From assembly GCA_008369845.1 (NCBI GenBank), contig MRSU01000988.1, forward strand, positions 1-51,329: a stretch of DNA of 51,329 nt, in the 5' to 3' direction. A model generated the notes under the pieces. It had not been told where the DNA came from and did not search any database. It saw nothing but the letters and a program-made list of their open reading frames with translations. The translations under genes were made by a program, and so were the position numbers. This document shows positions 1 through 42,189 of this stretch, piece by piece (the first letter of the stretch is position 1; each line of letters opens with the position of its first letter). This DNA comes from Trichomonas gallinae. Lineage: Eukaryota.

Positions 1-788
1 AGTGATTCATATATTGGTCACAAGAATGCGGCCTTAAAGCATTTCTGTGCTCCAAAAAGACTTCAGTTCTATGACCGTTAAGATTTTAACGTCATTTCTA
101 TCGTCATTGGTACACCTCTGTTACAGACATGAAAAAATGGCATTTCAAAATTTCATTCTGAAAAATTAATATAAACGCATAAGAATCTCGCACATAAAAA
201 GTAAAGGCTATTTTTAACACAGCATTAATATTATCTTTTGAATTTTACCGAAAATTAATTTTAAGAATTTTATCTGGTCCTATACTGGAATACTTAATGT
301 TTTTGACATATACAAAACCAGCTTAAATCATCTATGCTATACTGAACCCGATTTAAAGCCAGCCTAATAGCGAATAAAAAAAAGAACTTCGGTTAACAAC
401 AAATTATTGCATGTATTTGCTTATATTAACAATGATGGGCGAATATATCTATAAGAAAGGGGTTGAGTTAATAATCGTTTTGACAAAAACAAAACAAAAA
501 TCACAAATCAAAATTGAGAGTTGCGATCGTGAATCAGTTCTGTGGATATTTTTTTTGACCAACTTTGTATTTATATCTTTTAACTCATATATAATGGTTT
601 AGAACTAAATTGCTTAATTGAGATGATTTTGAAATATTTGTGAACACATTTGTTCCTACTTTGTGAGCGAACTTGAAATCACATTAATCTACTACAGATA
701 TGGAATAGTTTTAAAGAGATTTGGAAAAGAAAAATTATTTGTTTAGAAATTTTTGAAGTGAAATGAATTAATCGTAAAAATTTTTGGT

Positions 789-794
789 TCATTT
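789..794 (+). promoter_or_regulatory. Inr-like element TCATTT upstream of LDH
   Basis: TCATTT ends 7 nt before ATG 802, matching the trichomonad initiator consensus and position. Confidence 0.65.
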
Positions 795-801
795 ATTAAT
801 T

Positions 802-1803
802 ATGACGGAACCAGCACACGTTCTCATCACAGGAGCAGCAGGACAGATAGGCTACATCCTTTCCCATTGGATCGCAGGTGGCGAATTGTTTGGCAAGAGG
901 CCAGTTATCCTTCATTTGCTCGACTTACCTGCCGCCGAAAGCAGACTCACAGCTCTTACAATGGAATTGCAGGACTGCGCGTTTGACACACTTGTAGGCA
1001 TCGTCGCTACAACAGAGCCAGAACCAGCATACAAGGATATCGATGTCGCTTTCTTGGTTGCTTCAAAGCCATTGCTTAAGGGCCAGGTGAGAGCTGATCT
1101 TATCAAAGGAAACTCAACAATCTTCAAGGCAACTGGCGAATACTTGTCGATGTATTCCAAGCCAACAGTCAAAGTTCTAGTTATTGGCAACCCAGACAAC
1201 ACAAACGCTGAGATCGCTTTGTCATTCGCAAAGAACATTCCAAAGGAGAACTTCGCTTCTCTTAGCCTCTTAGATCAGAACAGAGCCTACTTCGAGATTT
1301 CTCGCAAACTCGGCGTCCAGATCTCAGATGTCCACGATATCAACGTTTGGGGCAACCACGGGGAGTCTATGGTTGCTGACTTGACAAACGCAACATTCGT
1401 TAAGAACGGAAAAACACAGAAGATCACAGACGTACTCGATAAAGAGTATTGCGAAAACACATTCTTCAAATACATCAGCCACAGAGGCTGGGATATCGTC
1501 GAATACCGTGGATTCAGTAGCGCTGCGTCTCCATCCAAGGCTTCCTTGCAGCACATGAAGGCTTGGCTCTTCGGAACAAAACCAGGTGAAACCTTGAGCT
1601 TTGGCATCCCAGTTCCAGAGGAGAACCCATACGGTATCAAACCAGGAATTGTTTTTTCATTCCCATGCACAGTAGATAAGGATGGTAAGGTCCATATCGT
1701 CGAAAATTATAAGATTAACGATTGGCTTCGTGAAAAATTGAATTTCACAGAAGCAGATCTCTTCAATGAGAAGAAGATCGCTATGGAAATCCTTAACCAG
1801 TAG
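802..1803 (+). CDS. LDH: Trichomonad lactate dehydrogenase (cytosolic-MDH-derived), 333 aa
   Basis: GAAGQIG nucleotide-binding motif, GNPDNTN, LDQNRA and WGNHG are present. The substrate loop ASKPLLKGQVR has Leu at position 91 instead of the MDH Arg. The first ATG is at 802 (the track start 784 is TTG). Confidence 0.92.
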   Translation: MTEPAHVLITGAAGQIGYILSHWIAGGELFGKRPVILHLLDLPAAESRLTALTMELQDCAFDTLVGIVATTEPEPAYKDIDVAFLVASKPLLKGQVRADLIKGNSTIFKATGEYLSMYSKPTVKVLVIGNPDNTNAEIALSFAKNIPKENFASLSLLDQNRAYFEISRKLGVQISDVHDINVWGNHGESMVADLTNATFVKNGKTQKITDVLDKEYCENTFFKYISHRGWDIVEYRGFSSAASPSKASLQHMKAWLFGTKPGETLSFGIPVPEENPYGIKPGIVFSFPCTVDKDGKVHIVENYKINDWLREKLNFTEADLFNEKKIAMEILNQ

Positions 1804-4793: not shown

Positions 4794-6569
4794 ATGGATA
4801 ATTCTCTTTTCAATGTCGAAAATTTGGAATTTACAAGTATTGTAGATATTGAAATTCCAGAGTCATTGCAGACAATAGTAGGCCTAGGAGAAATGATCTG
4901 GTCAGTTAAATCAGAAGAAGAAGCTAAATCAATTATTGAATATGTTATTTCTAATGATATAACGATTGGATATGTTCTAAGAATGATTGAATACATCTCA
5001 TTACACAGAAAACGATACATAAAGTACTTACTCTTAGTTTTTGAAGAATTATATAAAAATCCGAAGCATAAACAAGAAACAATGAAAGTAAATGCCGACT
5101 TTGGAGTACTGCTGAGCTCCCACGACATAAAAATGGACTATTATGGATCTACAAAAAGTCCTGAAAAAGTTTTATCAATTTATGAAGAAAACACGCCATT
5201 TTACTTCTGTGTGTTCGATTTAATCGAAGAGTTGAAGAATGCTGCAGCACGTGCAGATTTTTATGTAGATTTGTCAACAAGAGAATATCAATTCGATGAT
5301 TATTCATTAAGTTTGCTTGATATATCTTGCAAATACGGTTCTATAGAATGCTTTAAGTATTTGATCATGAATGGAGCCAAAATTAGCCAATTTTCAGCAA
5401 AAATGGCAGTTGAAGGTGGAAATCTTGAGATAATTAGAATTCTTCAACGCGAAGGCATCAAGTTTGATAAGCTTTATTCATGGGGATGCGAATATCACCA
5501 TAATCACATCTGTGACTGGTTATTAGAAAATTATCAAAGCGATTTGTTGACATTGTGCGATTCTTTGCTGTACTATAACATAAAATCATTCCTTTTCTTG
5601 GTTGCCAATGGTTTTGATGTAAACAAAATAACAATTGTAATTCATCATAAAATTAAAATTACAAATTCGAAGAAACGCCGCTTACTGTAGTTTGTCAGCA
5701 TGGAAATGCTGAGCTTTGCAAGTATCTTATTTCTTGTGGAGCTGACGTTAATGTTACTGTTAGAAACAAAAGAAGTAACAAAATTCATCATTAATTTATT
5801 ATTTTACTCCTTTAGCTTTAGCAGTTGAGCGTAACTTCGTTGATATTTGCAAGATTCTCATTGATGCTGGCGCAGATAAAAATATTCATTTGAAATATGA
5901 AATTAATCATAATTTTATACAAAAATAGTTCATTTTTGGCTCATGATGTTCATTGTTTTATCATTTAGTTCATTATTTAGTAATGATTGCGTTAATTATT
6001 AATTTTTATGATTTATCATTCTAATATTCAGTTCATTTATATTGTTATGAATTTCATTTGCGTATTTATGAAAGAATTCATTGCTAAATTATATAATTCA
6101 TCATTTTTTAATGAAATAATTCTTTAATTTGTTATAATTCTCTATTAACGCTTGCTTGCAAACTTCACGCATTCGAAACATGCAAGTTCTTGATAGAATC
6201 AGGCCTGGATGTTAATTTCGTATACTCATACGAAGTAATTCCCTTTTATAATGATTATGTTCATCTTAAGTTTTCGATGTGGTTCATTATTTTTCTTATT
6301 TGAACGTTCATCATTCTTTTGCGATGTTCATCATTGTCTTTTGACACTCGACTCAGCGAAATCCATTATTTAAATATGAAACTTCTTTGACAATCGCAAT
6401 CGAGAACCAGGACGAAGACATTGTTGAGTTGCTGCTGAATAATGGCGCCGATGTTAAGTTGTTTGACGCTGTGCAGCTGGCTGAGAAATACAATAATGAA
6501 AAGATCAAAGCTATGCTGCAAAAATACGTTGTAGTCAAACCAAAATCTAGACATTGTTTAATCATATGA
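4794..6569 (+). CDS. DUF3447-type ankyrin-repeat protein, coding sequence split into five blocks, with C-terminal CaaX (CLII)
   Basis: The 4794-5636 block contains LLDISCKYGSIECFKYL, AVEGGNLEIIRIL and YHHNHICDWL. Further ankyrin repeats follow: EETPLTVVCQHGNAELCKYLISCGADVN (~5666-5773), FTPLALAVERNFVDICKILIDAGADKN (~5803-5900), NSLLTLACKLHAFETCKFLIESGLDVN (~6133-6234) and ETSLTIAIENQDEDIVELLLNNGADV..CLII* (~6369-6569). Confidence 0.8.
5885..6335 (+). repeat. Degenerate ~20-24-nt periodic TTCAT arrays inside the ankyrin gene's intervening sequences
   Basis: TTCAT at 5885, 5929, 5949, 5969, 6032, 6053, 6077, 6097 and 6260, 6283, 6307, 6327, with single copies at 5641 and 5784. Confidence 0.75.
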
Positions 6570-7071: not shown

Positions 7072-8868
7072 CTAAGCATGAAGAACTGCATCGTGATTCT
7101 TGCTCTTTTTCTTCTTGCAGATTAGGCAAACAGCTAAAACGATCACGAAAATAACCAAAGCTACACCGAGAATTGTTAAGACAACAATCAAGATGACAAT
7201 AGGAGCTGTTGAAATTCCGCCAGTTGGTGTTGCGAATGTCTGGCTTAATGGCTTGAGTTGGATGTCAGTATTCATTTCAAATGGATCTGATGCGTAGTTC
7301 ATCTCTTGGAGTGTGACTGATCTGCAGAATCTCTCCGGGTCAACACAGTTAACAACAATATTATTAATACTCCAAGCTTGGTAAACTGTGTATTTAAACT
7401 CAACATTGAGGTTATTCTTAGTGCAAGTGATATGCTTCTGTTTGTTATAGTTGTCTTTGTTAACAGTGACAATTGTAAAATCAGAGAAATTATTGCAGGA
7501 ATAATTTCCGCATTCAATCATGCCAGGCAAAATAGCTTGGCCAGGTGGACACACCATATTGGGGAATTTGAACGGAATGTAATCATACGGCCAATCAGAT
7601 CCAATATTTTGGTCATTTAAGACATTGAAGAAATCTTTGCCATAGCAATATGGCGAAGTTTCTGGGTCGCTGTTTGGACAGCTAAATGTTTTTGTCTGAT
7701 CATTTTCTCCTGAGAATTTGAAATCAAATCCAACGTTATCATTATAAGTCTTGTTGTAAAGGTAATATTGAGGGAAGGATAGTTGTGCTGGATCAGTAGC
7801 AAAGCCTGATATTGGATTTCCATCAACTGAATATTTAGATCCCCAAACCATCGGCTTCAGCCATTGATAGTTGATCTTGTAGTTTCCTGAATCTACCAAA
7901 AATGACATAGAAACATCGGTTAATCGGTTGAATGGTCCGTTATTTGTTTGAATATTGACGCCAACCATCATTTCGCCGACATATACACGACTTTCTGGAT
8001 GAGCCATTGCTGTTCCTTGGCCTCCACCGTCTTCAAGTTCAATTCCTGACCAGCAAACTTGGCCATTATCTCCGTAAAAGTATTCCTGACCAAAATGCTT
8101 GACAGCGTATTTATGGGCCTGTGGAGAGTTCAAAAATGTGAAATTCTTGCCTCCTTTTGAAAGTTGGCAAGTGATATTTTGATGAGGGGTTTGTGAGTCG
8201 ACAGGGTGATACAAACCGTAAAGGGACGGGTTGATACCGAAAGCATGACACATTTCATGGACCAAAACGTAAAAATATTCGTTATCCCAATCATCATAAT
8301 TCGATGCCACTTCGCCAATGTAAACGGGATTGATAAATATCACACCTTGAATCGGTCTGAAGAATGTTCCATCGAGTTGGACGGCCGCACCGCAAGCAAT
8401 GACTTCTGAGCCTTGTGAAAAAGGCCTAAGGAATGCAGTGAAGTGCATATCGACGTTTTGCACTCTGGTGTTTGCAGGGATATCAGTGTAATCCGAAAAA
8501 TTGGTGAGATCAAAACCTTCTTTTAATGTTTGAACGTAAAGCACGTTTTGCATGTAAGCCTTTACATTCTCTAGTGTTTTTACAATAATTTCAGTCTGCT
8601 TATCAGTCGCAACGTCTTGTTTTGTGCATGTGTATGTATTATCCCATTTAACAACATCACCTGCATTGTAGCATCGCTTAGGATCCTTTATTGTACCATT
8701 AATATAGCTATAATCAATCTCTAATCTGATTGGATTAAATCCTTCTTCTTTGTATTCTTCATTTGTCCAGGAGTAATTCCTTGGATTGTGCTTGCCATGA
8801 ACATGGACATGCCCACATCGACGCTTTTTGCTCCTGGATAATCCTAAGGCTGCAAACAAAGTGAACAT
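7072..8868 (-). CDS. GP63/leishmanolysin-like M8 zinc metalloprotease, type I membrane protein
   Basis: HEMCH zinc motif, ELEDGGGQGTAMAHPESR (third His), EMM Met-turn, N-terminal hydrophobic leader, RCGH propeptide, and a C-terminal TM followed by KKKK. Confidence 0.93.
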   Translation of the reverse strand: MFTLFAALGLSRSKKRRCGHVHVHGKHNPRNYSWTNEEYKEEGFNPIRLEIDYSYINGTIKDPKRCYNAGDVVKWDNTYTCTKQDVATDKQTEIIVKTLENVKAYMQNVLYVQTLKEGFDLTNFSDYTDIPANTRVQNVDMHFTAFLRPFSQGSEVIACGAAVQLDGTFFRPIQGVIFINPVYIGEVASNYDDWDNEYFYVLVHEMCHAFGINPSLYGLYHPVDSQTPHQNITCQLSKGGKNFTFLNSPQAHKYAVKHFGQEYFYGDNGQVCWSGIELEDGGGQGTAMAHPESRVYVGEMMVGVNIQTNNGPFNRLTDVSMSFLVDSGNYKINYQWLKPMVWGSKYSVDGNPISGFATDPAQLSFPQYYLYNKTYNDNVGFDFKFSGENDQTKTFSCPNSDPETSPYCYGKDFFNVLNDQNIGSDWPYDYIPFKFPNMVCPPGQAILPGMIECGNYSCNNFSDFTIVTVNKDNYNKQKHITCTKNNLNVEFKYTVYQAWSINNIVVNCVDPERFCRSVTLQEMNYASDPFEMNTDIQLKPLSQTFATPTGGISTAPIVILIVVLTILGVALVIFVIVLAVCLICKKKKSKNHDAVLHA

Positions 8869-10524
8869 TTTGATTTTTTGATTTATCGTATTTATCTCAA
8901 TTTTAATTATACGATTGTTTGAAAAACAGCATTAGCTCTGCTTTCCTATATTCTTCGTTTGTTATTTCAATTTTTCAATTATCAAAGAAATTTATTAACA
9001 TTAATTTATTTAAATGCAAATTTTTATTTTTTATATTTTTTGAAAGTACTCAAAAATTTTCTGAGATTTATTCATCGAACAACATTTCATAAATCACTAA
9101 TTTATGTCCAATATTAAAAAAAGCAACAAAATTCAGAAAAAATTAGGGGCCCAAAATAAATATCAACTAGCTCCCTAGGATTTGGAATTTAAATTATTTC
9201 TTTTTTATAAAACTTTTGAATACTTCATTTCAAATACATTCAAACAAAAATAATCATGGTTTCACACACATTTAGGTATATCGATGATAGAAACAAAATT
9301 TGAACAATTTGAATAGTAAAGAAAATTTTTAGTTCTTTCAAAAAATGATCATTATAAAATATGATATATGCATTAAAATAATCAATATTTTCAAATAAAA
9401 AATTTATTCAAAATTAATAAAATTTATGACAAAAGTTTAACTCTTAAAATTGCTATTGCTACACTTCTTCCTTTCCGTTTGCAATCTCTACAATCCGAGT
9501 ATCAGCATCACAAGTGTTTCGATCCTTGATTTAGAAGAATTACTCGAGATTTAAAGATAAGGTTAATTTTCATAACAAGGTTAATATTCATCAAACAATA
9601 AACATAACAAAAACATCATGAAATAAGACATTCATCATCAGTTGCCTCAATTGACTCTATTGTATATATAACAATTTTCTTCCATTAATTGTATATTTTA
9701 GATATTCGACTTGTAATTTTCAATGGAAGAATGATACAACTATTCATCTTCTATTAGAACTTGTAGTTTTCAATGACTAACAGCATCAGAATTCAGTTAA
9801 ATCATGTTTCAATTCTTGTTTTGGCCACAAAAGTTATAAAGTATGATGTACATCCGATTTGTATATGTTAGCTTGATCTGGAGAATTTAGTTCGAAATCG
9901 AGTTGAATCATTTCTATATTTCTTTCTTTTTATTGACTCAGGAGGCGAAGCATATTCAACATTAATCTTTATGCAAAAAAATTGATTTGGTTTTATTATA
10001 AAATTAAGATATGTCTTGTTTGTTGACGCAATTATTGTTCTTCAATATTGATATTCTGTTAAAAATTATTCATATCAATAATAATTTCATAATTGGCTGT
10101 AAATTGATTGATATAATCGATACATATCAGTATTAGTCTGAATTTATAAATCAATTCATGTTGTTTCTGCATGAAATTTCAAATCAAATTTTATAATGAT
10201 AAATATTCCAAAAATATATTAACAAAACTTTATTTCCTCTTGATTATAAGAGAATTATTGTGATCAAACAAGATTTCAGTCTGGCCATATCAAAACTCAA
10301 TAATCCATTTTGAAATACATATCTATCATTGCAGATGTTACATAGATATAAAACATATATTATAATTGAAGGCATAAAAGATATAAAAATGGAAATAAAA
10401 ATTCCTAATTTCAAATTTAAAGATTTGTGAGCTAATTTTGAATATTTACCGAGAAATACTATATCAAAAGACTATTTTTATAACCAAAATCTCAAATAAA
10501 AAATTGGCGCCAAAAAAACTATAA

Positions 10525-23637: not shown

Positions 23638-25056
23638 ATGACCGAACTTGAGGATATAACTCCGCAGGAAATGGAAGGTGATATTCCAGATATCGAATCA
23701 AAGCCAGAAATCAAATCAAACATAGATGTTGACGGCAATCCTATGGACTTACCTGATGATGGGACACCAGAACCTGAACATGAAGACGATGGAACACCAC
23801 ATTTAGAAGAAGAAGAACTTGATGAGAAGAAATCGCCAAAGTCCAAATTCGATGAACCAGGAAGAGTTCGAAGATTTACAACTGTTTTGAATCTGTTGAA
23901 TTCTTTGCTTGGCGCTGGTATCCTTGGTGTTCCTTATGCTATGAAATACATCGGATTGATTCCATCCATCATCCTTCTCGCTATTATTGCTGGTTTATCA
24001 CACATTGCAACTGTTTTGACAGTGAAATTGCAAGCAAGAACATCAGCATCTGGTTTGGATGACTTAGCTTACAAGACTTTTGGCAAAATTGGATCTATTA
24101 TCTTGTCTATTCTTTCAATGCTGTTTTTGTATTCCGCAGAGATCTCCTATCTGATCATTGGCTCCGATTCCATTATGTCATGGCTGAGACTCGCTGGTTT
24201 GGATATCAGAGATGGTTGGAAACGCGCAATAACATTATTAATTTTCTGGATCTGCATTCCAGGTGCTCTGACAATTCCAAAGGACATCAAGTTCATCAGT
24301 TACACATCATATGCGAACTTTATCTGCATTGGTTGGTTCCTTCTTGTCATGATTATCAAAGCATGCATGGTTTTCCCGAAGAAAGGAATTGCGAAGCTCA
24401 CTTATGCACAATTTGGTTTTGGTTTCTTCTCAGCAGTTGCAATGTATGGTTTAGCTTTCTCTCTTCCAGTCGTTGTCCTTCCAATTATCGGATCTTACAA
24501 CAAAGATCTGAAAAAGAGATCAATTGTCTCAGGAGCCGCTTCAATTGCTTGCTTTGTTATCGTTGCATTGCCAGCAATTATCGGATACTTAATGTTTGGC
24601 GATGAAATTCAAACAATCATTTTAAACTCGTTTGAGGACAAAGATGTATTGATCACAATAACACGTGCAGCATTCTTGATCGTCGTCTGCTGCTCTTATC
24701 CATGTGTTGGTCAATCAATTAAAGGATCTTGGGGTCAGTTGATTTTCAATCAAAATGACGCTTCCAAGATAGAAGGATGGCGTAGAGTAGTAATTTTCTT
24801 CGTTTTCAACTCGATTGCAGTAATTATTGCAATTTTCTTGCCAAATGCAGGTCCAGTTCTTGCAATTGGTGGTGCTTTAGGCGGAACTTTAGTCGACTTC
24901 GTGTATCCACCAACAATGTGGGTCAAATTATCGAAGAAGAAATGGTATCACTGGCAGAACTTGCTTTGCTTGCTTCTCACGCTATTCGGTTTAGTAGCTA
25001 CTGTTATTTCTACTTATTTGGCTGTTGTCGATGCTATCAATTTCTTGAAAAACTAA
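23638..25056 (+). CDS. Amino-acid transporter (Aa_trans/AAAP, SLC38-like)
   Basis: NLLNSLLGAGILGVPYA signature, about 11 hydrophobic segments, GYLMFG and an acidic N-tail. ATG at 23638 follows TCAGTT (23620-23625). Confidence 0.93.
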   Translation: MTELEDITPQEMEGDIPDIESKPEIKSNIDVDGNPMDLPDDGTPEPEHEDDGTPHLEEEELDEKKSPKSKFDEPGRVRRFTTVLNLLNSLLGAGILGVPYAMKYIGLIPSIILLAIIAGLSHIATVLTVKLQARTSASGLDDLAYKTFGKIGSIILSILSMLFLYSAEISYLIIGSDSIMSWLRLAGLDIRDGWKRAITLLIFWICIPGALTIPKDIKFISYTSYANFICIGWFLLVMIIKACMVFPKKGIAKLTYAQFGFGFFSAVAMYGLAFSLPVVVLPIIGSYNKDLKKRSIVSGAASIACFVIVALPAIIGYLMFGDEIQTIILNSFEDKDVLITITRAAFLIVVCCSYPCVGQSIKGSWGQLIFNQNDASKIEGWRRVVIFFVFNSIAVIIAIFLPNAGPVLAIGGALGGTLVDFVYPPTMWVKLSKKKWYHWQNLLCLLLTLFGLVATVISTYLAVVDAINFLKN

Positions 25057-28447: not shown

Positions 28448-29966
28448 TTGCGTCAAATTGTAATTTTTTGGTCCATTGTTTATGCTTGTTTTTCTTCTTT
28501 TATTTGAGCAACATTCCTATAATAAATCATTTTACAAAGATTTTAAACGACAAGAAAAAAGCACAAAATTTATGGTTTTTTGTTGTTAGCGATGACACTC
28601 CTTAACTCAGTGATAAACACACTATTTCGCTTGTTTTCAAGCGTTTTGCATCAAACAAATTAAATGATTCAATGAGTTGATCGAATATTATAATAATTTT
28701 GAGTCATTTATTCATTATTTGAGATTAGCTACGTCAGAAATTAAATTATCTCATCTTTCTTAGTTAATTCCATTTGTTCAAACATGTGACTGTCATTCAT
28801 CCAATGATTGAATAATAAGATTGCGTGAGTAAAATTGCTGTGAGACACAGCATGATTAGTGCGCTATCGTGTACAGTGGTTAATCACATGTGCAAATTGT
28901 CATTATCCCTTATTACCGATCCGAAACCTTAAAACTCTTCTAAAGTTGCTTTATCATAACACGAGGAATCAAATACATATAGGGTTCTAAATCTCTATTA
29001 TCCGTAAAACAAACAGTTGTTGAATTCATTTTCGAAATAAGATTTGAAAATATGCAAAATCATGGAAATATAAAGCGATTAACTAATGCTTTAGATACTA
29101 CTCGCTGATATTATTACATAAAATCTTTGCTTATCATCAATATTAATTGCATTTCAAGAACAAAATTACGTTTTTCTCACGTTTGTTTTCCAAATCAAAA
29201 GGAATAAATATTTCCCTTAATAACGAATTTTCCCATTGATTTATAGAAAAATAATATGCTATACTTGAAATGTAAAAATTTGACATTGTAAACTCATTTT
29301 TTAACATTTCCAATTTTGAAAAACACTATATCTTCATGAATACCCGATTTTTATCCAACAACTATAGGATATATGTCATTTTCTACTTAGTTTAAAAGCT
29401 ATACACTTGGACTGAACAACAAATAAAATGGAGAATTAAAAATCTGACAAATAAATCTGACAGTGTAAAGATAGAAATTTGACAATGTTGATCAAAAATC
29501 GGCGCACTTTTGAGAAGAATCAATTGAATGAAAAACGATTATTTCTTGAAGACTTCAAAAATATTTTGATAAAACAATTATATACAATAAATAGTGCTAT
29601 ATTTCGATTTTTGATAAAACCTCAAAAATTGAATCAAAAAAGAATTATCGGAAAAATTTTGCAAATTCGAATAAACTTCAATCCTTTTGAATATATCACA
29701 GTGATCTAACTATCAGCGCTAAAATAAATTTGAATTTGAATTTTGATACTGAAAATAGCAATTTATATATCTGGATTATGATTGTTTGTTGATTTCTGAG
29801 ATTTTCAAATTTGAATTGAGAATAATCGTTTGTAAATTTTATATTTTTATCTTAAATTGATAAATATTCATGGAAAACGCGTCAAAAACCAAATGCAGAA
29901 ACTTTCGATTTCAATAATTTTAACCTCGAAAATTTTGAATATTTGTTAGTTCTATTTTTGATCTCG

Positions 29967-31895: not shown

Positions 31896-33725
31896 TTAAA
31901 TATCATCATTATTAATAAATGCTTCATCATCAATATTGTCAATTGCCACATTATCCAGGTCATCTTGTTGATTAGGAATATCAGAAACATCTACACTAAC
32001 AACCCTATTAGGATCATAACCCTTTTCCACGATAGTGCCAATGTTTGATGATGATGAAAGCTCGAAAGAATCATCAGAACCATAGAAATTTTCGTCGTTC
32101 TTATGGACTTGTCTCCAGAGGAACAATCCCATACCTGCAATCAAGAAAAAGAGGAACAAGCCAGCTGCTGAGAAACCAATAAGGGCTGCTGCAGAAATTC
32201 CTGTCTCTTGTTTGTCAGCAACTGTATATACGATGACAATTGTCTCTTCATATGTATAAAAATTAGTGCTCACAAGAATATATGAAATTGCTCCTTTTGC
32301 ATCTCTAGTTTCCGATAATGTCTCATTTATAAGGACCAATATATCAGTTTTAGATTTGGATTCTGTTAAAGTTTTACCTTCTGGAACATAAATATTATTT
32401 GGTTTGGACTGAACTATTGGCACAGGCACAGTAATCATCGGTGTCCGCTTTGGTGAAAGAGTTGGTGGTGGTGGATCTTTCTTTGGAATTGTATTGATTT
32501 TAGTGAAAAAACTGTTTTCGTTGAAATGAATTTGTGTGTAATGTTTATGGTATGATTTTGTTGTTGGCCTCGGCAGCTTTGTCATTGGTGTCGCAGCATA
32601 AGTGTAAATTGTTGGAGCTGGAACACTTGTAGTAGAAGAGCTGGTGAGAAGTAAATTAGGATGTGCAAAAGTTATTGATTTCAAATAATTATATTGTGGA
32701 AAATCTATCATTTTAGCGCCGCATCTGATTGTACTAAATCCTCGATTAAATATTTTTACATGGTTTGTTTCAGTATGGTTATTTGTTTGATATAATACAT
32801 CATTGTATGGTGTCATGTCACCATTTGATGTCCATATAGTGTTTTTGTTAAGTAGCACATCATTGCCAAATCCCTGGATTTGGTTGCCATTGAAACAGCA
32901 GTCATTTGTTGTTAAATCACACTTTTTGTCAGATGTTGACTCAACAGTTGAGTAAATTGCTCCACCTCCTCTAACTCTAGAATATGATGTTGAATTCGAT
33001 TTAAGATATAATCTTGATGTCTTATTAAATAGATTCACATTTTCGAATTTTGGGCTCCAATTAACCCTATTGGATTCAAAATTTGATTTTACGATAAGCA
33101 CTTTTGTACACTCATCGAGTTCTAAGGCGCCAGCTTCATATTGAGCTTCATTATTTTTAAAATTGCATCTTTCAATGTAAGAATCAGGAACGGATAATAA
33201 AGATACAGCACCACCAGTATTGTCGCATTTATTTTCCTGGAAAGTACTGGAGAGTATATAAATGGAAAATGCAGAATCATCATGTTTATTACCATTGTAG
33301 TAGTAAGAGACAGCTCCGCCAAGTAAATGTGCCGTATTCGATTTGAATTCAGTATAACTAATGTAAATACTAGATGTGGTGAAAGTGATTGCTCCACCAA
33401 TTTGAGCTTTATTGGATTTAAATTCAACTTGATTTTTGCTTGTACCTTTGCATTGAAAATTGCAATAGTGAATTGAAATGGCTCCACCTGCTCCTGCATC
33501 TATTCCAGAGCCGAAACCATTACAGTTAAGAAACTTTGTCCCCTCATTTATTGTTACAAAAGATAATATTAAATCGAATTTGTTTGTAGCGATATAACTT
33601 CCGGATATTTCGGTTTCAATATTACTTTGGGTCAGTGATTCTCCATCTACTTGTTCATCATGAAATGTTGGCTCAGCATATGCCAATGAATGTTGGAGCA
33701 AAACATTCATAAGTAGCATTGTCAT
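31896..33725 (-). CDS. Polymorphic membrane protein (Pmp)-like surface protein
   Basis: Repeated FxxN and GGAI/GGAV motifs (FKSN..GGAI, FQEN..GGAV), a P/T-rich stalk, an S/T strand region, a TM and an acidic cytosolic tail. Confidence 0.85.
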   Translation of the reverse strand: MTMLLMNVLLQHSLAYAEPTFHDEQVDGESLTQSNIETEISGSYIATNKFDLILSFVTINEGTKFLNCNGFGSGIDAGAGGAISIHYCNFQCKGTSKNQVEFKSNKAQIGGAITFTTSSIYISYTEFKSNTAHLLGGAVSYYYNGNKHDDSAFSIYILSSTFQENKCDNTGGAVSLLSVPDSYIERCNFKNNEAQYEAGALELDECTKVLIVKSNFESNRVNWSPKFENVNLFNKTSRLYLKSNSTSYSRVRGGGAIYSTVESTSDKKCDLTTNDCCFNGNQIQGFGNDVLLNKNTIWTSNGDMTPYNDVLYQTNNHTETNHVKIFNRGFSTIRCGAKMIDFPQYNYLKSITFAHPNLLLTSSSTTSVPAPTIYTYAATPMTKLPRPTTKSYHKHYTQIHFNENSFFTKINTIPKKDPPPPTLSPKRTPMITVPVPIVQSKPNNIYVPEGKTLTESKSKTDILVLINETLSETRDAKGAISYILVSTNFYTYEETIVIVYTVADKQETGISAAALIGFSAAGLFLFFLIAGMGLFLWRQVHKNDENFYGSDDSFELSSSSNIGTIVEKGYDPNRVVSVDVSDIPNQQDDLDNVAIDNIDDEAFINNDDI

Positions 33726-34609
33726 TTTCTTAACTAGATTTTATTTGAAAACAGAAAAATTCAATTTTTGGTGCAAACAATGTTATACAGTAACATAAGA
33801 AGGAGCAAATAAAAAATATTCGGTTTATTTCAAAAAAATGATAGAGGTCTCAAAAAATTTGACTCATTTGTTATCAGTTGTCAATTAATGTCTAGCTATA
33901 CATAAATATAAACTCATCGCATCATGTTTTTGTCGTTTATGTCAGATTTTTTTTTTGAATTGATATAAATATCAAACGCCAGGTATCATAGAATACTATA
34001 ATGTTTTTATTTGTTTATTTCAAAAATTTATTTCAATGGTACATCATTTTTTGACTCAAACTAATAATATTTATATTTATGTTTAGTTTTTTTTTTTATT
34101 TTACATCTTGTGTCAAAAAATGGAGTGTTATATTATCATATGTATAATCATAATACATGTTTGAATAAATTTAATGAATGAAATAACGTGCTCCACTTTT
34201 TCTTCCCAATACATTATAATGTTAACTATATTAGATATTGAATATTATTTCAATTACGAAGTTTTTTTCGTTGTATTTTGATGATATTTCATCTGTATAG
34301 TTAAAAAAAATGCGCAAATACTAATTATATCGATACAGATTGTTATATTTTTTGCAATTTGATCTTTTCTCAGATGGAATTGTAATTGAAATTTCAAATC
34401 AATATTTTTCGGGTCAATAATAAATGTTTTCAAAAGTATATTCATAGCAATCATTAATCCTCGGTTTATCGCTGCTATTCATTTTATTTAAATAAAAAAT
34501 AAATTTTTGCTAAAGTATTACCATTAGATAGATTGTTTAATAGTATATTAATGCGTGGTTGTTTGTAATACATATCTGATTTGAACAATAATAAAAAAAC
34601 TAAAAATTG

Positions 34610-35115: not shown

Positions 35116-37575
35116 ATGCTATAGTCACCAATATCTGAGCCTATTGGTGGAAAATATTCCACCAATTATGAAATCCTCATTGACACAGAGTACAATATCA
35201 CCAATCTCATTATTAGAAGAGAGACAAAAACAATTTTTGGTTCAACAGCAACAGAATACGCGACAAAATCGTGTGCAGCCACATTATTAACATTTTCTTT
35301 CCAATCAGATCCTTTACTTGAAACTATTCAAAAATATGCATTTTATAATTGCTTTGTTTTAAAAACCATTGATTTACGAGAATGTAGAAATTTAAAGGCG
35401 ATATACAATAATGCGTTTGCATTTTGCACAAGTGTTACTAATATTTACCTCCCAGAAGGTTTAACTTCGATTTACGAAAATGTATTTCAACAAACAAAAA
35501 TTACTGAATTTTCTTTTCCAGAGTCCGTGAATATATTCCCTCCAAGCTGTTTCAATGATTGTCGTTCGTTAGAATCTATTAATATCCCAAACGGAAGCAA
35601 TATTTTATCATTCGGAAGATGGTGTATAGTTAGAACAAAAGTGAGTACTATTACAATACCTTCAAAAACTAATTCGATTTCAAGCAGTGCATTTGAAGCA
35701 TCATCACTATCATCAATAATTATCAGCCCTTTAAACGAAAATTACAAAATTATCAATAACGTCGTGATCATAGCAAAAACGAATGTTGCAGTTTTTTATC
35801 CACCGAAATTGACCGATGATACTTTAGATATTCCTGAAGGTGTTGTAGAAATTGGTGCAGCATCTTGTTCATATGGATCTTACAAACATATAAAAATACC
35901 ATCCACACTTAAAATAATTGGTGGCTGGTGCTTTTATAGCTCGAAAATTGTTGACGTCAACATCCCATCAAATGTTATTTCTATTTACGATAATGCTTTT
36001 TATGACTGCCAGTCTTTGAGAACTGTTAATATTGCTGAAGGCATAACTCAATTAAATACAAGCTTATTCCAATATTCTGGAGTAAGTTCCGTCAAAATTC
36101 CGTCAACTGTCAATGTAATATACGCGCAATGTTTTATTGCTTGCAGAAACTTATTAACATTAGAGTTGCCTGATGGAATACAGAGATTAACTGGTACAAT
36201 ATGCAGCCCATGGACTCAGTTGATTTTTAGCAATAAATCGAACCTGTATATATATGATCAAAAGCTTATTATTGATAAAGCCAACACAACAGTTATGCAG
36301 TACATTGGATCAAACTCCGCTATTGATATTGACATATTTTCGTCGATTAAAGTTCTGAATAATTATGTTTTCTCTGGGATGTCGAATCTCAGATCAATCA
36401 AGTTTGCTCTTAACTCATCTTTAACATCAATTCAAACTGGCTGTTTCAAGAATTGTCGCAATTTGCAGTTCATCAATTTTCCGACAAATATTTCGTTTAT
36501 TGGAAATGAAGCCTTTATGAATTGTAATATGTTGACAAGTTTTACGTCAGCAGTTCTTAATGATTTATCCGACAGTGCATTTCACAGGTGCAACTCATTA
36601 ACGACAGTTAAAATAGATGAAGCTCCAATTAAATCATTACCGACCCAAGCGTTTTTCAACTGCGTTTCTTTGACATCTATTTTGCTGCCTAATTCTCTCA
36701 CAAGTATTGGCCAGAGCTGCTTCGAAGGTTGCACAACTTTGTCGACAGTCATCTTTCCGCCAGCTTTGTCTTACTTAGGAAACAACTGTTTCATGAATTG
36801 TGCATTGACAGTTTTAGATATTTATTCATGCTCTAACCTGAAAAACATTCCTGATTTTGCATTCAGCCATAATCCTTTGTCCAATATAGTTTTCAACCCA
36901 GAGATTGTCAAAATAAGCTATGAATCATTTTCTTACACAAATATAGCAAACTTCACGACTCCTCCCTTTTTGCAAACAATTGGAAGCAGCGCGTTTAGAG
37001 ACTGCACGTCCTTGGTAAACATCACAATAACTAGTGACTCATCATTAGAATCATTTGGTTCTGGCTCTTTCAGAGGCTGTATTTCGATTGAGAAAATCGA
37101 GTGCTCGAGTTCATCATTTACGGTTTTGACTGGCGCTCTTTTCAACTCTGAGCGAAATTATCTCATTTTATATCCACCTGCCTCTGATGTCAAATATTTC
37201 TCGATGCCGGCATCAACAAATATCATCAATGACTATGCATTTTATGGATGTCTTAATTTAATTTCAGTTTTCATACCTACAAACAGCGTCACGCAAATTT
37301 CGAATAACGCGTTTGAAGGTTGCAAGAACTTGAAATGGGTAAACATACCTAAGAGTGTAACATTTATCGGTGTTAACGCTTTCTTGAACTGTAAAATGCT
37401 CAGCTGTGGACTAGAAATAGAAAACAGACAACCAACATATCTGTCTAAACTTGTCAAAGATGCAAAACTTAACAAAATATGCCTGAAAGATTGTGATGCA
37501 TGTGCCACTCCAATCTGCAGGAATGCATATACATTTAGCTGGATGTTATTCATTATGCCATTCATCATTCTTTAA
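35116..37575 (+). CDS. BspA-like (TpLRR/LRR_5) surface protein with in-frame TAG at codon 3 (pseudogene or readthrough)
   Basis: The frame is open from 35125 to 37575 with LRR_5 units (LETIQKYAFYNC, LTSIGQSCFEGCTTL). ATG CTA TAG lies at 35116-35124 in the same frame. The track's 35527 start is an internal GTG. Confidence 0.8.
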
Positions 37576-37922
37576 TTTCATTGAAACTAAAAATTTGGTT
37601 TAAATCTCTAAAATATTGATGGATCCGCATCAGCTAATTAATCTAACCAGTTTTCTGATAAAAAACATAAACACATTTAAATTGACAAAAAAAATGAGTC
37701 GTAAATTTCAAAATGTCGAGGCATAATTTTCACTAAAAAAAGACAGAGAAAATCAGCATTCAATAACAGCCAAATAACAACATGAAGTGATATGACCCAT
37801 ATTTTATAGTTCTTAATCTTCAAAAAAGCAAACTACAAAAAAATAGAAAAAATTTGAAATTATACCGATTATATTAAAATATTAAAACAAAACAAACACT
37901 TTATATAAACATTAAACAAAAA

Positions 37923-40900
37923 TCAATTAACTGGATCAGGTTCCGGTAAGCTTTCAGTTGGTTTCTTCCTGAATTTGAGAAAAAGCATTACACCCAGCAC
38001 GACAGCGACAGCAACGAGCGCAACACCCGTCACACTGGTTGCTACTATCAGTCCTTTTTCCAAACTTGTGTATTTACTTGAGTCTTCATGATGCTCAAGG
38101 AAAGCTTCAGGAATACCTTCCTCGCATGGCTGCAGCGTGACATCATTGTTGAACAGTCTTGGGTTTGCGTATTGGTTTGTCGCTTTGTAATCAGTCAGAA
38201 ATGGAAGATTGCTGATCGATCCACTAATGTAGTACTCGCCTTCATAGCAGACTGCGTAAAGATATGGGGAGTTGGCAAAGGACGCCGTGTTGACATACTT
38301 CACAGAAGAAGGAATCTTGATGACTGTCGTGCCCAAAGTTTTATCGTAAACTTTCTGATCATTAAAATAAGCGGAGTCGATGTAAGGATTTATCGCTCTC
38401 GGTCCCATAATAATAACAGAAGCTGGCGCTGTATAAGGGTTCGGCAGTGTTCCGAATGTAGTTATCATTGTGCCACTCTGCTTGTCAATCAATGCATTGT
38501 TTTCAACGGCAAATATTGGATGAGAGCCTCGAGAGAATTCGATGTTGATGTTCGGTGCACCGACGAATGCGTCACTGGAAACATCTAAAATGGAATCAGG
38601 AATCACAAGCGTTTCAATGGATGAATCCTTAAACCAGTTTACATTATTTCCGCTTTGGTCAATGCCTGGGATGTAAGTTAAACCATTACCAAGCGTCACT
38701 TTCTTCAGCGACTTGCACTTTTGGAATGCGCCATAACCAACGTTTATCGCTGTGTCTGGGACAACTATCTCTGTTATTGCAGTCAGTACGAAAGCGTAGT
38801 TGCCAATAGCCGTCAAAGTCGGCGACATCTTTATGTTACTCAATGACGTACAGCCCCAGAAGCACATGTCTGGGATGTGGCAGATTGACCCGAAGTCGAT
38901 AGTCTTCAACGAGACGCAATTCCTGAAAACATTCTGCCCGAAGTATGAGCAAATAGGAGGGAATGTGATAGAAGTCAAACCGTAGCAGTTCTCAAAGCAT
39001 GAATCGCCAATACCAAGCAATTCAGTTTCGATTGAAATGCTGCTTAAATTGAAGCAGTCGTAAAACATGTAACTAGGGAAACTCTTCTCAAAGTTGAAAG
39101 GGTCCATAAGAGCAGCATTATAAGCAGGTGCTGTCTTTATGCTGTACACGAATTCCGTGATGCTTTGGCACTCGCTGAACGCATAAGACGAGAAACTGGC
39201 GAAGTTGTTCACAACAATCTTCTTCAAACTCTGTGCGTTGGATGAAAAAGCGTAAGCGGCGACATATAAGACAGAGTCTGGTATTATATAAGTGCTTGCA
39301 GTGTTGCTTGCCAGATAATAATACATAATCGTCTTTTCTGTGTTGTAGACGACATTATCTGAAACAACAAGTTTCTTATTATCGATGAATTCGATTTCCT
39401 TGAGGGAAGTACAGTTGATGAATTCTTGAGGCAAAAACTCAGGCCACTCTGATCCAATGATTAGTTTTTGGAGCTCGTGCATATTTTGGAATGGAAAGTT
39501 TCTTACGTTAAGCTTTTTGTTGATTTGAAGGGTCTTAATCCTTGAATATGAAAAGGCTTGGTCTCTTACATAAGAAGCAGTGCCCAAATCCAAAAATTGT
39601 ATCGGACCAGTTGACATGAATGATGATGCTGAAATAGCATAAAGATTACTCGGTAACTCTACGTATTCCAGTGAGGTACAGTTGCAGAAGCATGAGCCTG
39701 GGATAGATGCTACTCCGCTTATGATTGCTCTCTTGAGGCCTGTGCAGCCTTGGAAAATGCCGGTGGCAAGAGCTGTGCTAACGTTAATCGATTCGATGGA
39801 CTTGCATCCGAGGAAATTGTAGTTGCTAACACTGTACTCTTTTGGTATATCAGTTATTTTGATTTTTAGGCAGTACATGAAGGAATAACTCAGAAGATAA
39901 AGCTTAGGATTCCATTGTGGAATTACTAAGTTCTCACAGAATGCAAAAGCATATGAGCTGATTTGTGTGACCTTTGATAAATCGAATGTTTCGAGTTTGC
40001 CGCACATATAGAAAGCGTAGCTGTCAATGGAAACAAGCTGCGGTGATGCAAAAGATCTAAGGTTGATGCATGACCTGCAGAAACTTTGAGGAACATTGGT
40101 AACGTTGACAATGAGTTTTTCTAAGTTCATGCACTCAGAGAACATGTATCTGTTGATGACGTAATTGTTTGGAACAGATACAAATCTTAGCTCTCTGCAC
40201 CTATAGAAGGCGTACTTTCCGATTGTGCACTGTGTGACATCTAAGCTAAACACGATTTTCGATATCATGCTTTGTGCGAAAGCGTAGTCGCCTATTGATG
40301 TGATTTTTTCTGTTAAAGTGAGTGTTATAAGTCCAGAGCCCTGAAACGCAGAATCTTGTATAGTTGTAATTGTGTCAAAGGGAAAACTGGCAAGTTTTAT
40401 GCAATATTCAAAGCTAGATTTGCCTAAAACTTGTACGCTTGACCCGATGACAATTTCAGTAAGTGCACTGCAGCGAGCGGCAAAGGACTGGCCTATTTGA
40501 AAGAGATTTTGGCCAATTTCAATTTTTTCAAGAGCTGAACCTTCAAAAACTGACTTTCCGAGTGTGGAAATCTTTGTAAGTTTGACGGATATTAAATTAT
40601 AGCACTCGTAAAACGCATTATCTTCGATTGATTCAACACTGTCGAGATTTATTGACTTTAAACTTGAGTCTTTAAAGCAATTGGCACCTATAGAATATAT
40701 ATTTGTGCTAAGAGCAACTGCTTTGATGTTTGATCCGCCTGCAAATAGCGAATCTGGGAGAGATCTTAAATTCGTTGCTTGAAATTGTACTGAATAAACA
40801 CGTTTAAAATAGTCGTATGCAGTTAAATTCGTAATTTCATTACCGGATATCGTAAGCGTGTTGATATTATTTGCAGCAATTAGATAACTGATTTTCTTTG

Positions 40901-41015
40901 TGTCCTTTAAATCATCAGGCTTCGATATAATCAGCTCCTTCCCATTGATGACGGGTTCAGACTCCATTAAAACGGGCCGATTCAATAAGGACGAAAAAAA
41001 CAGAAATCTATTCAT
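37923..41015 (-). CDS. BspA-like (TpLRR/LRR_5) type I membrane protein
   Basis: Many IxxxAFxxCxxL repeats, a C-terminal TM (GLIVATSVTGVALVAVAVVLGVMLFL) and KFRKK. The first ATG is at 41015 (MNRFLFF..). Confidence 0.93.
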   Translation of the reverse strand: MNRFLFFSSLLNRPVLMESEPVINGKELIISKPDDLKDTKKISYLIAANNINTLTISGNEITNLTAYDYFKRVYSVQFQATNLRSLPDSLFAGGSNIKAVALSTNIYSIGANCFKDSSLKSINLDSVESIEDNAFYECYNLISVKLTKISTLGKSVFEGSALEKIEIGQNLFQIGQSFAARCSALTEIVIGSSVQVLGKSSFEYCIKLASFPFDTITTIQDSAFQGSGLITLTLTEKITSIGDYAFAQSMISKIVFSLDVTQCTIGKYAFYRCRELRFVSVPNNYVINRYMFSECMNLEKLIVNVTNVPQSFCRSCINLRSFASPQLVSIDSYAFYMCGKLETFDLSKVTQISSYAFAFCENLVIPQWNPKLYLLSYSFMYCLKIKITDIPKEYSVSNYNFLGCKSIESINVSTALATGIFQGCTGLKRAIISGVASIPGSCFCNCTSLEYVELPSNLYAISASSFMSTGPIQFLDLGTASYVRDQAFSYSRIKTLQINKKLNVRNFPFQNMHELQKLIIGSEWPEFLPQEFINCTSLKEIEFIDNKKLVVSDNVVYNTEKTIMYYYLASNTASTYIIPDSVLYVAAYAFSSNAQSLKKIVVNNFASFSSYAFSECQSITEFVYSIKTAPAYNAALMDPFNFEKSFPSYMFYDCFNLSSISIETELLGIGDSCFENCYGLTSITFPPICSYFGQNVFRNCVSLKTIDFGSICHIPDMCFWGCTSLSNIKMSPTLTAIGNYAFVLTAITEIVVPDTAINVGYGAFQKCKSLKKVTLGNGLTYIPGIDQSGNNVNWFKDSSIETLVIPDSILDVSSDAFVGAPNINIEFSRGSHPIFAVENNALIDKQSGTMITTFGTLPNPYTAPASVIIMGPRAINPYIDSAYFNDQKVYDKTLGTTVIKIPSSVKYVNTASFANSPYLYAVCYEGEYYISGSISNLPFLTDYKATNQYANPRLFNNDVTLQPCEEGIPEAFLEHHEDSSKYTSLEKGLIVATSVTGVALVAVAVVLGVMLFLKFRKKPTESLPEPDPVN

Positions 41016-42189
41016 GCAAAAAAAAAAATTTCCTTGGCACGTAAACAATAATTTATCTGTCACTTTTTGTATGATTAAAATCTCAAATTATTGATGTATA
41101 ATGATAAAAATTGATATCGAGATTTAAATTTTTGAATGAAATGAACGTTAAACCGCTAGGCACGTTTATCTGTCATGTAATTTAAATTATATTGTCGTGT
41201 AAAGTGCAAAATTTGATGAATAAACAATGAGATCTTAATCTGTTAGAATTCAATAGTGTAATCCTTTGACATTATATATACCAATTCTCATCTTAATATT
41301 TTTAATAAATTCCTTGCTGATGTTTAATCGATATTCACCATCAATTTATAATATAATAGTAAAGAAAGATATTACATGATATTGAATCTGAATACGGATT
41401 CGCTTTCAAATGATATTTGATATATTTTTACTCTATAAATCAGACCCATGACAAATATAATCATTGAATAAGCATGCTATATTGTTTTAATAAACATATC
41501 ACGTATGCGGTGACGAACGGTAAGGTTTTTGAACATTCACAAATATTTACATGTTCTACACCATCAAGGTACTTGATTTTATTCATATTTTGGTAAACAG
41601 ATTGGAATCAAATGGTCTGTGAATGTTTTAATGGCTCATAAAAAAAAAATATGACAAAACATAGTTTATTGAGCTCTTACTTACATGGAGGGTTCGGAAT
41701 TTAGCAAAATATTGGTTTATCCTAAAGCATATTGAATTTTCATTGAATCAGATATTGTTCTTTTTATATTAATTGAGTAAATAGAAATGATATTTATGCA
41801 ATTGATGCTAAGTATTAAATATTATCATATTCATAATTCATCTGTTTAAGAGATATTCTATGAATGAAATTTAACATCAAGCTTGTAATGTTGATTTTAT
41901 CGGGCATAATGCTGATGTATCGAATTTATTTTATTACTCTACCTAAAAGAATCTTCATTGATATTTCATTCGCTGCAAATTATATCCCAATAGAAACAAA
42001 AATGAAGATAGAGCATAATTATTCTATATATCGACTAAATTTTCATAATAAAGCGGTTTCATTAATGCTCATAATGTATTATAGTTTCAATTATATAGTT
42101 GCATATTCAAAGCATGCGAAAATTCCAATCCTTAAGAATCTAATGTCATATAATAGTTTACATTATAGGTTTTCAACATATGAAATGAT

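What the first reader, a model, noticed from the sequence alone, without database searches (positions are those of the whole stretch)
5641..6335. The intervening sequences are arrays of a ~20-24-nt TTCAT-centred, often hairpin-forming unit
Seen: sense-strand TTCAT recurs once in each short insert (TTCATCAT at 5641 and 5784). It is periodic in the long ones: 5885, (TCAT 5907), 5929, 5949, 5969, (GTTAAT 5991, TCAT 6016), 6032, 6053, 6077, 6097 and 6260, 6283, 6307, 6327. Many units are mini inverted repeats (ATGATGTTCAT, ATGAATTTCAT, ATGAAAGAATTCAT, ATGATTATGTTCAT, and the palindrome TGAACGTTCA) separated by variable T-rich spacers. Insert length thus scales as roughly 1, 1, ~10 and ~5 units. 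Inference: the unit is a cis signal (a protein-binding or RNA-structure mark for excision or skipping) or the footprint of an expansion process targeted to ankyrin loops. TCATT also matches the Inr, so the arrays could be internal start-site clusters.
Basis: partly seen in the sequence, partly recalled or inferred. Interest (0 to 1): 0.8.

Follow-up and report, generated by a model that had tools for sequence, protein, structure and literature searches.

The report
Tiny non-canonical introns in ankyrin loops
An ankyrin-repeat gene of a trichomonad-type protist is broken by chains of 17-18-base pieces that are present in DNA but missing, base-exactly, from likely-RNA contigs of a related strain, so they are likely a new kind of tiny intron cut out without the usual splice signals, and 17-base breaks also sit in the ankyrin genes of another parabasalid.

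Summary
The TTCAT arrays are real, but the unit starts one base before TTCAT and is 17-18 nt long; the 'spacers' include coding micro-exons of 0-18 nt. A DNA-type run keeps every insert. Contigs of a likely-RNA run from a strain about 5% diverged lack all 7 units they bridge, and this restores the frame. All 7 sit between codons and none ends in AG. A predicted 12-unit parse completes a 482-aa DUF3447-ankyrin protein. The T. vaginalis homologue aligns without a gap across junction 1 and has its own insert at the site of unit 2. In metagenome loci of another parabasalid, 144 of 163 out-of-frame ankyrin spacings are exactly +17 nt and 7 are +34, in 25 of 35 locus groups, and the repeats are intact. 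Best reading: a class of 17-nt non-GT-AG introns that nine literature searches did not find, removed by a length-measuring cut-and-join step guided by ankyrin-loop context. The enzyme is unknown. Hairpin and Inr readings are not supported. Main gap: one RNA source, contigs only, no DNA from that strain.

The parts
4794..5639 (+). Exon 1: N-terminal domain plus DUF3447/ankyrin region (282 codons)
   Evidence: ORF; Pfam DUF3447 and Ank; 43% identical to T. vaginalis TVAG_004680
5640..5656 (+). Unit 1, 17 nt, phase 0, ends AT..AA
   Evidence: 17 letters left out in X2 record 11, kept in X1; registers 5639-5641 are equivalent; junction aligns gap-free to TVAG_004680
5657..5782 (+). Exon 2: ankyrin repeat
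   Evidence: Pfam Ank E 1.3e-6
5783..5799 (+). Unit 2, 17 nt, phase 0, ends AT..AT
   Evidence: X2 loose end behind 5782 (24 letters) continues at 5800; single register against the window; T. vaginalis homologue has a 49-residue insert at the same codon boundary
5800..5883 (+). Exon 3: ankyrin repeat
   Evidence: Pfam Ank E 4.6e-5
5884..6135 (+). Array 1: 12 predicted units (5884-5901, 5902-5918, 5928-5944, 5948-5964, 5968-5984, 5991-6007, 6011-6027, 6031-6048, 6052-6069, 6076-6092, 6096-6112, 6119-6135) with micro-exons of 0, 9, 3, 3, 6, 3, 3, 3, 6, 3, 6 nt
   Evidence: Predicted from the motif and the frame; other stop-free parses exist (7 for an earlier set of starts). Not bridged by X2; X2 record 12 begins to align at 6136 after 5 unaligned letters. 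X1 has one extra T behind 6088
6136..6258 (+). Exon: divergent ankyrin repeat and start of loop
   Evidence: Open frame; covered by X2 record 12; no Pfam hit at E 0.01, weak hit to my own ankyrin profile
6259..6275 (+). Unit, 17 nt, phase 0, GT..TC; followed by 6-nt micro-exon 6276-6281
   Evidence: X2 joint 6259-6378 with 32 letters between, which map to four window pieces
6282..6299 (+). Unit, 18 nt, phase 0, GT..AT; followed by 6-nt micro-exon 6300-6305
   Evidence: single register against the window
6306..6322 (+). Unit, 17 nt, phase 0, GT..GC; followed by 3-nt micro-exon 6323-6325
6326..6342 (+). Unit, 17 nt, phase 0, GT..TT; followed by 18-nt micro-exon 6343-6360
6361..6377 (+).
   Evidence: single register against the window
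6378..6569 (+). Last exon: ankyrin repeat, capping helix, CaaX-like end, stop
   Evidence: Pfam Ank E 9e-5; X2 record 12 covers 6378-6521; CaaX reading is recalled knowledge

Best explanation
The inserts are chains of 17-18-nt pieces that lie between codons in the loops of an ankyrin-repeat gene and are likely tiny non-canonical introns, cut out of the mRNA, probably by a length-measuring cut-and-ligate step rather than by ordinary GT-AG splicing. Shown: DNA carries the units; likely-RNA contigs of a sister strain lack all 7 units they bridge; exact removal restores the protein frame; no end is AG; the same +17-nt step interrupts intact ankyrin chains in a second parabasalid. Inferred: removal happens on RNA in the window's own organism (about 0.8); the cut starts at a weak R-T-T-N-A-K-T signal and ends 17 nt on, shifting to 18 nt when a TTAT end lies there; the site is chosen by ankyrin-loop context, because the motif alone is too poor. 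For the machinery I commit to a non-spliceosomal endonuclease plus RtcB-type ligase, possibly acting on the translating ribosome (about 0.45 overall, untested), ahead of a divergent spliceosome (about 0.3). The arrays would grow by duplication of a unit plus whole codons, which lengthens the ankyrin binding loops.
For:: X1 (DNA-type, one 7.7-kb contig over 4401-6587) keeps all inserts; X2 lacks 17 nt at 5639, jumps 5782 to 5800, and joins 6259 to 6378 through four micro-pieces (skips of 17, 18, 17, 17, 17 = 86 nt, which the frame requires). X2 behaves like RNA: 7 of the 8 pieces listed lie inside ORFs, contigs 1-4 end near gene ends or inside genes with no loose tail, and contig depth runs from 3.7 to 75, against about 25-29 for X1's long contigs. 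7 of 7 observed and 12 of 12 predicted units are phase 0. No equivalent register of the 7 ends in AG or AC. T. vaginalis TVAG_004680 aligns gap-free across junction 1 and has an insert at the site of unit 2. Second parabasalid (a neighbouring adaptin's best named hits are Tritrichomonas at 75% and T. vaginalis at 71%): of 280 distinct spacings up to 140 nt, 144 are 116 nt (99+17), 93 are 99 and 7 are 133; 25 of 35 locus groups carry them. Cutting 17 nt two codons before TPL leaves 0 stops in 144 linkers; EM puts 80% of the mass there and 87% on phase 0; 1 of 193 flanking repeat cores has a stop, and 10 of 13 chains become stop-free through their last detected repeat. Only 7 of 144 linkers hold any 17-nt G[TC]..AG.
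Against: The RNA evidence is one run, labelled 'RNA?' by guess, as low-depth contigs (4.6 and 10.3), from a strain 3-8% diverged whose DNA I could not see; unit 2 rests on a 24-letter loose end. One X2 piece (28815-29056) is intergenic. Array 1 is not bridged. There is no RNA for the second parabasalid, where the cut positions are inferred and offsets 14 and 15 both give 0 stops. No spliced form of TVAG_004680 turned up (3 hits), and the Logan members of four T. vaginalis clusters keep the read-through tails (whether they are DNA or RNA is unknown). Against a ribosome link: phase-0 look-alikes are not depleted in 18 intact ORFs (6 seen vs 4.9-6.3 expected at 8 bits; low power), phase 0 can be inherited by duplication, and unit position varies from 0 to 24 codons after the loop Asn in the window gene. 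No enzyme was identified.
Confidence: 0.75

Rival explanations
1. Same introns, but removed by a divergent trichomonad spliceosome that uses a type-B-like donor and measures 17 nt without a branch-point motif or AG.
For: 8 of 19 window units start GTTCAT, which fits the type B donor GTWYWD followed by a T-rich run (PMC13548475 passages). The commonest start in the second species is GTTGAGT (19 of 144), close to a U1-type donor. A sits at -2 in 15 of 19 window units, in a T-N-A-Y context. Strict tiny lengths are typical of ciliate and nucleomorph introns (PMC12316389 passage).
Against: No AG and no TCTAAC/ACTAAC branch motif. Only 45 of 144 second-species units start GT and 53 of 144 have A at -2. 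Exons of 0-3 nt. PMC12316389 reports GT/AG and a fused branch site in all its confirmed trichomonad introns and no U12 introns. It does not explain the restriction to ankyrin loops.
Confidence: 0.3
2. The units stay in the mRNA and ribosomes hop over them (translational bypassing); the X2 strain has simply lost them from its DNA.
For: Phase 0, fixed length, weak motif. X2's DNA was not seen, and there is no RNA for the second species.
Against: No matched take-off and landing codons: 0 of 7 observed units and 6 of 144. X2 would need 7 of 7 exact losses around 3-18-nt exons while being about as diverged from the window as X1, which keeps them all; such loss is most easily made from a spliced RNA.
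Confidence: 0.08
3. Selfish DNA micro-insertions that have wrecked ankyrin pseudogenes.
For: Unspliced, the gene stops at 5688-5690. T. vaginalis has many split genes (bioRxiv 10.64898/2026.08.31.748405 passage). Earlier scan notes describe micro-insertions in giant-virus ankyrin genes (unchecked).
Against: Units are divergent (48% identity within a locus, 45% between), with no target duplication or hairpin. The coding parts are intact (1 stop in 193 cores) and chains end in capping helices. X1's predicted protein is 96% identical and stops at the same place. X2 covers the gene without the units.
Confidence: 0.04
4. Reverse-transcriptase or assembly artefact in X2.
For: Contigs only, low depth, one run.
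Against: Junction homology is only 0-2 nt. Seven skips of 17-18 nt restore the frame exactly. No such skip appears in 13 records laid on 20 kb of other genes.
Confidence: 0.03
5. Clusters of internal Inr start sites.
For: TCATT resembles the trichomonad Inr (recalled). A unit-like 17-mer lies at 787-803, just before the LDH/MDH start.
Against: X2 contigs run through with the units removed. TTCAT is not the consensus in the second species.
Confidence: 0.02

Closest known systems
Trichomonas type B spliceosomal introns (23-28 nt; GTWYWD N7 TCTAACH1-2AACAG; PMC12316389 and PMC13548475, passages read)
   Same: Same lineage; very short; similar 5' hexamer followed by a T-rich run.
   Different: 17-18 nt; half start with A; no branch motif, no AG; up to 19 per gene instead of 1-2; all phase 0; confined to ankyrin loops.
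Tiny spliceosomal introns of Stentor (15 nt) and Bigelowiella (18 nt) (lengths as cited in PMC12316389); very short introns of Mikrocytos (PMC11069148 passage)
   Same: Near-fixed tiny length.
   Different: Those are GT-AG and genome-wide (recalled); these lack AG and are family-restricted.
IRE1/XBP1-HAC1-bZIP60 and tRNA splicing (PMC13149111, passages read)
   Same: Short, non-GU-AG, target-restricted, frame-switching removal by nuclease plus ligase.
   Different: No conserved stem-loops seen here; many introns per mRNA across a large gene family.
Euglenid nonconventional introns (recalled; one search gave no usable paper)
   Same: No GT-AG; removal mechanism unknown.
   Different: Those have end-pairing structure and variable length; here the length is fixed and folding does not beat shuffles.
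Translational bypassing elements (T4 gene 60; Magnusiomyces byps) (recalled)
   Same: In-gene inserts at codon boundaries.
   Different: No matched codons or hairpin; the units are missing from likely-RNA contigs.
Schistosome micro-exon genes (recalled)
   Same: Strings of 3n micro-exons in variable protein regions.
   Different: Those use ordinary long GT-AG introns; exon skipping was not seen here.

Membership tests
Trichomonad type A/B spliceosomal intron | 5' GT donor (GTWYWD or GYAYGY) | tested here: inconclusive
   8 of 19 window units fit GTWYWD, 9 start with A, 1 with T, 1 is GTTAAT; 45 of 144 start GT in the second species
Trichomonad type A/B spliceosomal intron | Branch site fused to 3' AG (TCTAAC..ACAG / ACTAACACAYAG) | tested here: not met
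   No register of the 7 observed units ends in AG; motif absent from the units; 1 of 144 ends AG at the inferred cut
Trichomonad type A/B spliceosomal intron | Length of 23 nt or more | tested here: not met
   17-18 nt
U12-type intron | RTATCCTT donor, branch motif, AT-AC or GT-AG ends (recalled) | tested here: not met
   Consensus is RTTCATYWTT; no AC end among the registers
Any spliceosomal intron | Lariat intermediate and snRNP dependence | not testable with these tools
   Needs lariat sequencing or knockdown
IRE1-type / tRNA-type intron | Stem-loops or bulge-helix-bulge at both cuts | tested here: not met
   Five stretches fold no better than shuffles; BHB was not searched for separately; the only Rfam match is far below its gathering score
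IRE1-type / tRNA-type intron | Endonuclease plus RtcB/Trl1 ligase dependence | not testable with these tools
   No genome held; needs experiment
Translational bypass element | Matched take-off and landing codons | tested here: not met
   0 of 7; 6 of 144
Translational bypass element | Insert retained in mRNA | tested here: not met
   Absent from X2 contigs at 7 of 7 bridged sites; X2 is likely RNA and another strain
Tandem repeat / mobile micro-insertion | Near-identical copies | tested here: not met
   No TRF array; 48% identity within loci

The most novel reading that the evidence does not exclude
Parabasalids carry a third mRNA-splicing system: a translation-coupled nuclease-ligase that removes a ribosome-measured 17-nt piece at a codon boundary in ankyrin loops. 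Many 'truncated' or pseudogene ankyrin models in Trichomonas and relatives would then be intact genes, and 3n micro-exon arrays could diversify or regulate their binding loops.
Probability: 0.3. Interest if true: 0.98.

Novelty: categorically new. Interest (0 to 1): 0.92.

Why it matters
Trichomonads are described as having about 60 strictly GT-AG introns (PMC12316389). A family-restricted class of 17-nt non-AG introns, up to 19 per gene with exons as short as one codon, would be a new kind of mRNA processing whichever enzyme does it. It would also change gene counts: many short DUF3447/ankyrin models, including T. vaginalis ones, would be first exons, which bears on the open question of 'split genes' raised in 2007 (as recounted in bioRxiv 10.64898/2026.08.31.748405). 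It is cheap to test, because T. vaginalis has public short- and long-read RNA. Published pipelines discarded junctions lacking canonical motifs, and STAR's default scores gaps under 21 nt as deletions (recalled), which would hide these introns.

Tried and rejected
No holder on record as RNA was listed. Array 1 and the ABC and Pmp genes had no X2 cover. Hairpin signal rejected. Matched-codon bypass rejected. The [IV]H[YFH] tail signature in homologues did not beat scrambled controls clearly (14 of 150 vs 6-12), so it is not used as evidence. My script's 'stops in loop' flag (22 of 35) mis-sorts several proteins; by eye about 23 of 35 full-length-matching homologues end in AT-rich read-through tails, which is suggestive only. 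Depletion of phase-0 look-alikes in intact ORFs: none found. Synonymous codon differences between loops with and without units: no clear signal. Alignment A1 was too divergent for a locus scan; A2 worked. About 9 of the 41 loci have few or no ankyrin hits or uninterrupted chains (e.g. L001, L002, L007, L009, L012, L030, L032/L033, L036, L038, L040); they were kept in the denominators. Rfam: nothing credible. Earlier scan findings: none for this genome or these words; two searches gave unrelated ones. Nine paper searches found no description; subscription journals and supplements were not seen. The full-length product was not folded.

Full report
Setting. The window is eukaryotic and parabasalid-like: long intron-free ORFs for BspA, Pmp-like, leishmanolysin-like, Myb and RhoGEF proteins. 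The finding lies in a gene that starts at 4794 with a DUF3447/ankyrin region; its later ankyrin repeats sit in three different frames. The closest named homologue is T. vaginalis TVAG_004680 at 43% identity. The species was not determined.

Observation. All listed TTCAT sites are present. Density is 32 per kb against 4.1 in intergenic DNA; 25 and 249 of 5000 shuffles reach the counts in the two long inserts. Folding is no better than shuffles in 5 of 5 stretches, so the hairpins look incidental.

What the units are. Two runs hold part of the region. X1, DNA-type, gives one contig over 4401-6587 with 134 differences; it keeps every insert and adds one T inside a unit. X2, guessed to be RNA, differs in three places. 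It leaves out 17 nt at 5639. Its contig leaves the window after 5782 and resumes at 5800. It joins 6259 to 6378 through 32 letters that map, with one substitution, to four short window pieces. The last joint therefore holds five skips of 17, 18, 17, 17 and 17 nt; the 86-nt total is what the frame needs, and five times 17 would not do. Taking each unit from the purine before TTCAT, all 7 lie between codons, and the pieces between them are 6, 6, 3 and 18 nt. Three have a single possible register against the window, and no register of any ends in AG or AC. Applying the same rule to 5884-6135 gives 12 more units with 3n micro-exons and a stop-free 482-residue protein ending in a CaaX-like motif. 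That parse is predicted and not unique; X2 supports only its right end.

Is X2 RNA? In a 20-kb control, 7 of the 8 listed pieces (13 records laid) fall inside ORFs, the contigs themselves end near gene ends, and depths vary about twenty-fold across, while X1's long contigs sit at 25-29. One 242-nt piece is intergenic. No 17-nt skip appears in those genes, although a strong sense-strand look-alike at 24291 (phase 2) and two moderate phase-0 ones at 26270 and 26369 are bridged (X2's alleles there were not visible). X2 is 3-8% diverged from the window, so its DNA might lack the units. That would take seven exact losses in a strain about as close as X1, and I put it near 0.1.

Generality. (a) T. 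vaginalis: the homologue aligns with no gap across junction 1, where it has no insert, and carries a 49-residue AT-rich read-through at exactly the codon boundary of unit 2. Two NCBI models of TVAG_019730 differ at a loop, the newer one skipping a stretch that the older reads through; by my reading of the two frames the skip is 20 nt, and the DNA and the basis of that model were not seen. (b) A scan of metagenome contigs gave 41 loci in 35 groups. A neighbouring adaptin at L027 has Tritrichomonas and Trichomonas as best named hits. Most loci come from three assemblies that share identical loci, so they may be one organism. Among 280 distinct repeat spacings up to 140 nt, 163 are out of frame; 144 are +17, 7 are +34, 5 are +19 and 2 are +16. 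Removing 17 nt two codons before the TPL motif leaves no stop in 144 linkers, and an unconstrained EM fit chooses that phase-0 offset (80%). Repeat cores are intact (1 stop in 193), and 10 of 13 chains become open through the last detected repeat; the other 3 contain missed repeats or 16/23-nt variants by my reading. Some ankyrin genes in the same loci have no units.

How sites are chosen. The window's units carry about 11.6 bits, the second species' only 4.4-5.1 bits: R-T-T-K-A-K-T-T-T ... T-W-T. There the true unit ranks first among the 116 positions of its repeat in 55 of 144 cases, and control coding DNA has 9 sites per kb above the median unit score. The motif alone cannot define the cut; length and ankyrin-loop context must contribute (inference). 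The TPLH codons downstream are strongly biased (CTT for Leu in 106 of 128 against 23% background), but equally so in loops without units, so this may be shared descent.

Mechanism. Removal from RNA is the best-supported step (about 0.8). The machinery is open. For a divergent spliceosome: the 5' half resembles the type B donor. Against: no branch motif or AG, most second-species units lack GT, exons are as short as 0-3 nt, and the units are family-restricted. For a nuclease-ligase with a ruler, perhaps on the ribosome: fixed length, non-canonical ends, phase 0, context dependence, and 17 nt is close to the 80S toeprint distance (recalled). Against: phase 0 can be inherited through duplication, and phase-0 look-alikes are not avoided elsewhere. 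I commit to nuclease-ligase at about 0.45 and spliceosome at about 0.3.

Literature. Passages were read from PMC12316389, PMC13548475, PMC13149111, PMC8529796, PMC10711314 and PMC11069148, and the abstract and passages of bioRxiv 10.64898/2026.08.31.748405. None of these passages describes such units. The first states that junctions without canonical motifs were discarded (99.7% of the questionable ones). The Giardia paper lists rare non-canonical junctions in ankyrin genes, but these are 93-279 nt long. Nine searches found no report; supplements and subscription journals were not seen and could hold one.

Verdict. A real and conserved feature that fails the defining tests of each intron or bypass class I could test. 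It is most likely a new class of tiny intron. It needs matched DNA and RNA, which public T. vaginalis data can partly supply at once.

Noticed in passing
window 28815-29056: A 242-nt X2 contig (depth 5.4) lies in a stretch with no ORF of 80 aa or more: a possible non-coding RNA, small gene or DNA carry-over.
   Followed up: no
window 787-804: A unit-like 17-mer (score 9.6) runs from an Inr-like TCATT to the AT of an in-frame ATG near the start of the LDH/MDH ORF; the units resemble a short trichomonad 5' leader, a possible origin.
   Followed up: no
P0021 vs P0160 (T. vaginalis TVAG_019730): The newer NCBI model skips a loop stretch that the older one reads through and continues into an ankyrin repeat; it may be an annotated instance of this removal.
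   Followed up: partly
P0015 vs P0159: Two near-identical proteins differ at a loop: one stops, the other reads through six residues into the next repeat, as expected for 17- versus 18-nt variants.
   Followed up: partly
L003-L041, TPLH codons after each loop: Strong synonymous bias (ACT CCT CTT CAT) far above background codon use, in loops with and without units.
   Followed up: partly
L003, L004/L005, L034: Seven +34-nt loops, consistent with two adjacent 17-nt units; L004 has almost only these.
   Followed up: partly
window 35125-41087: Two convergent BspA genes; an X2 contig leaves the window at 37110 with 87 unlike letters, probably strain or paralogue variation.
   Followed up: partly
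window 7072-8931, 31896-33740: Leishmanolysin (GP63)-like and Pmp-like surface-protein genes, typical of trichomonads.
   Followed up: no
window 6555-6569: The last exon ends in a CaaX-like motif, so the full protein may be prenylated (motif recalled).
   Followed up: no
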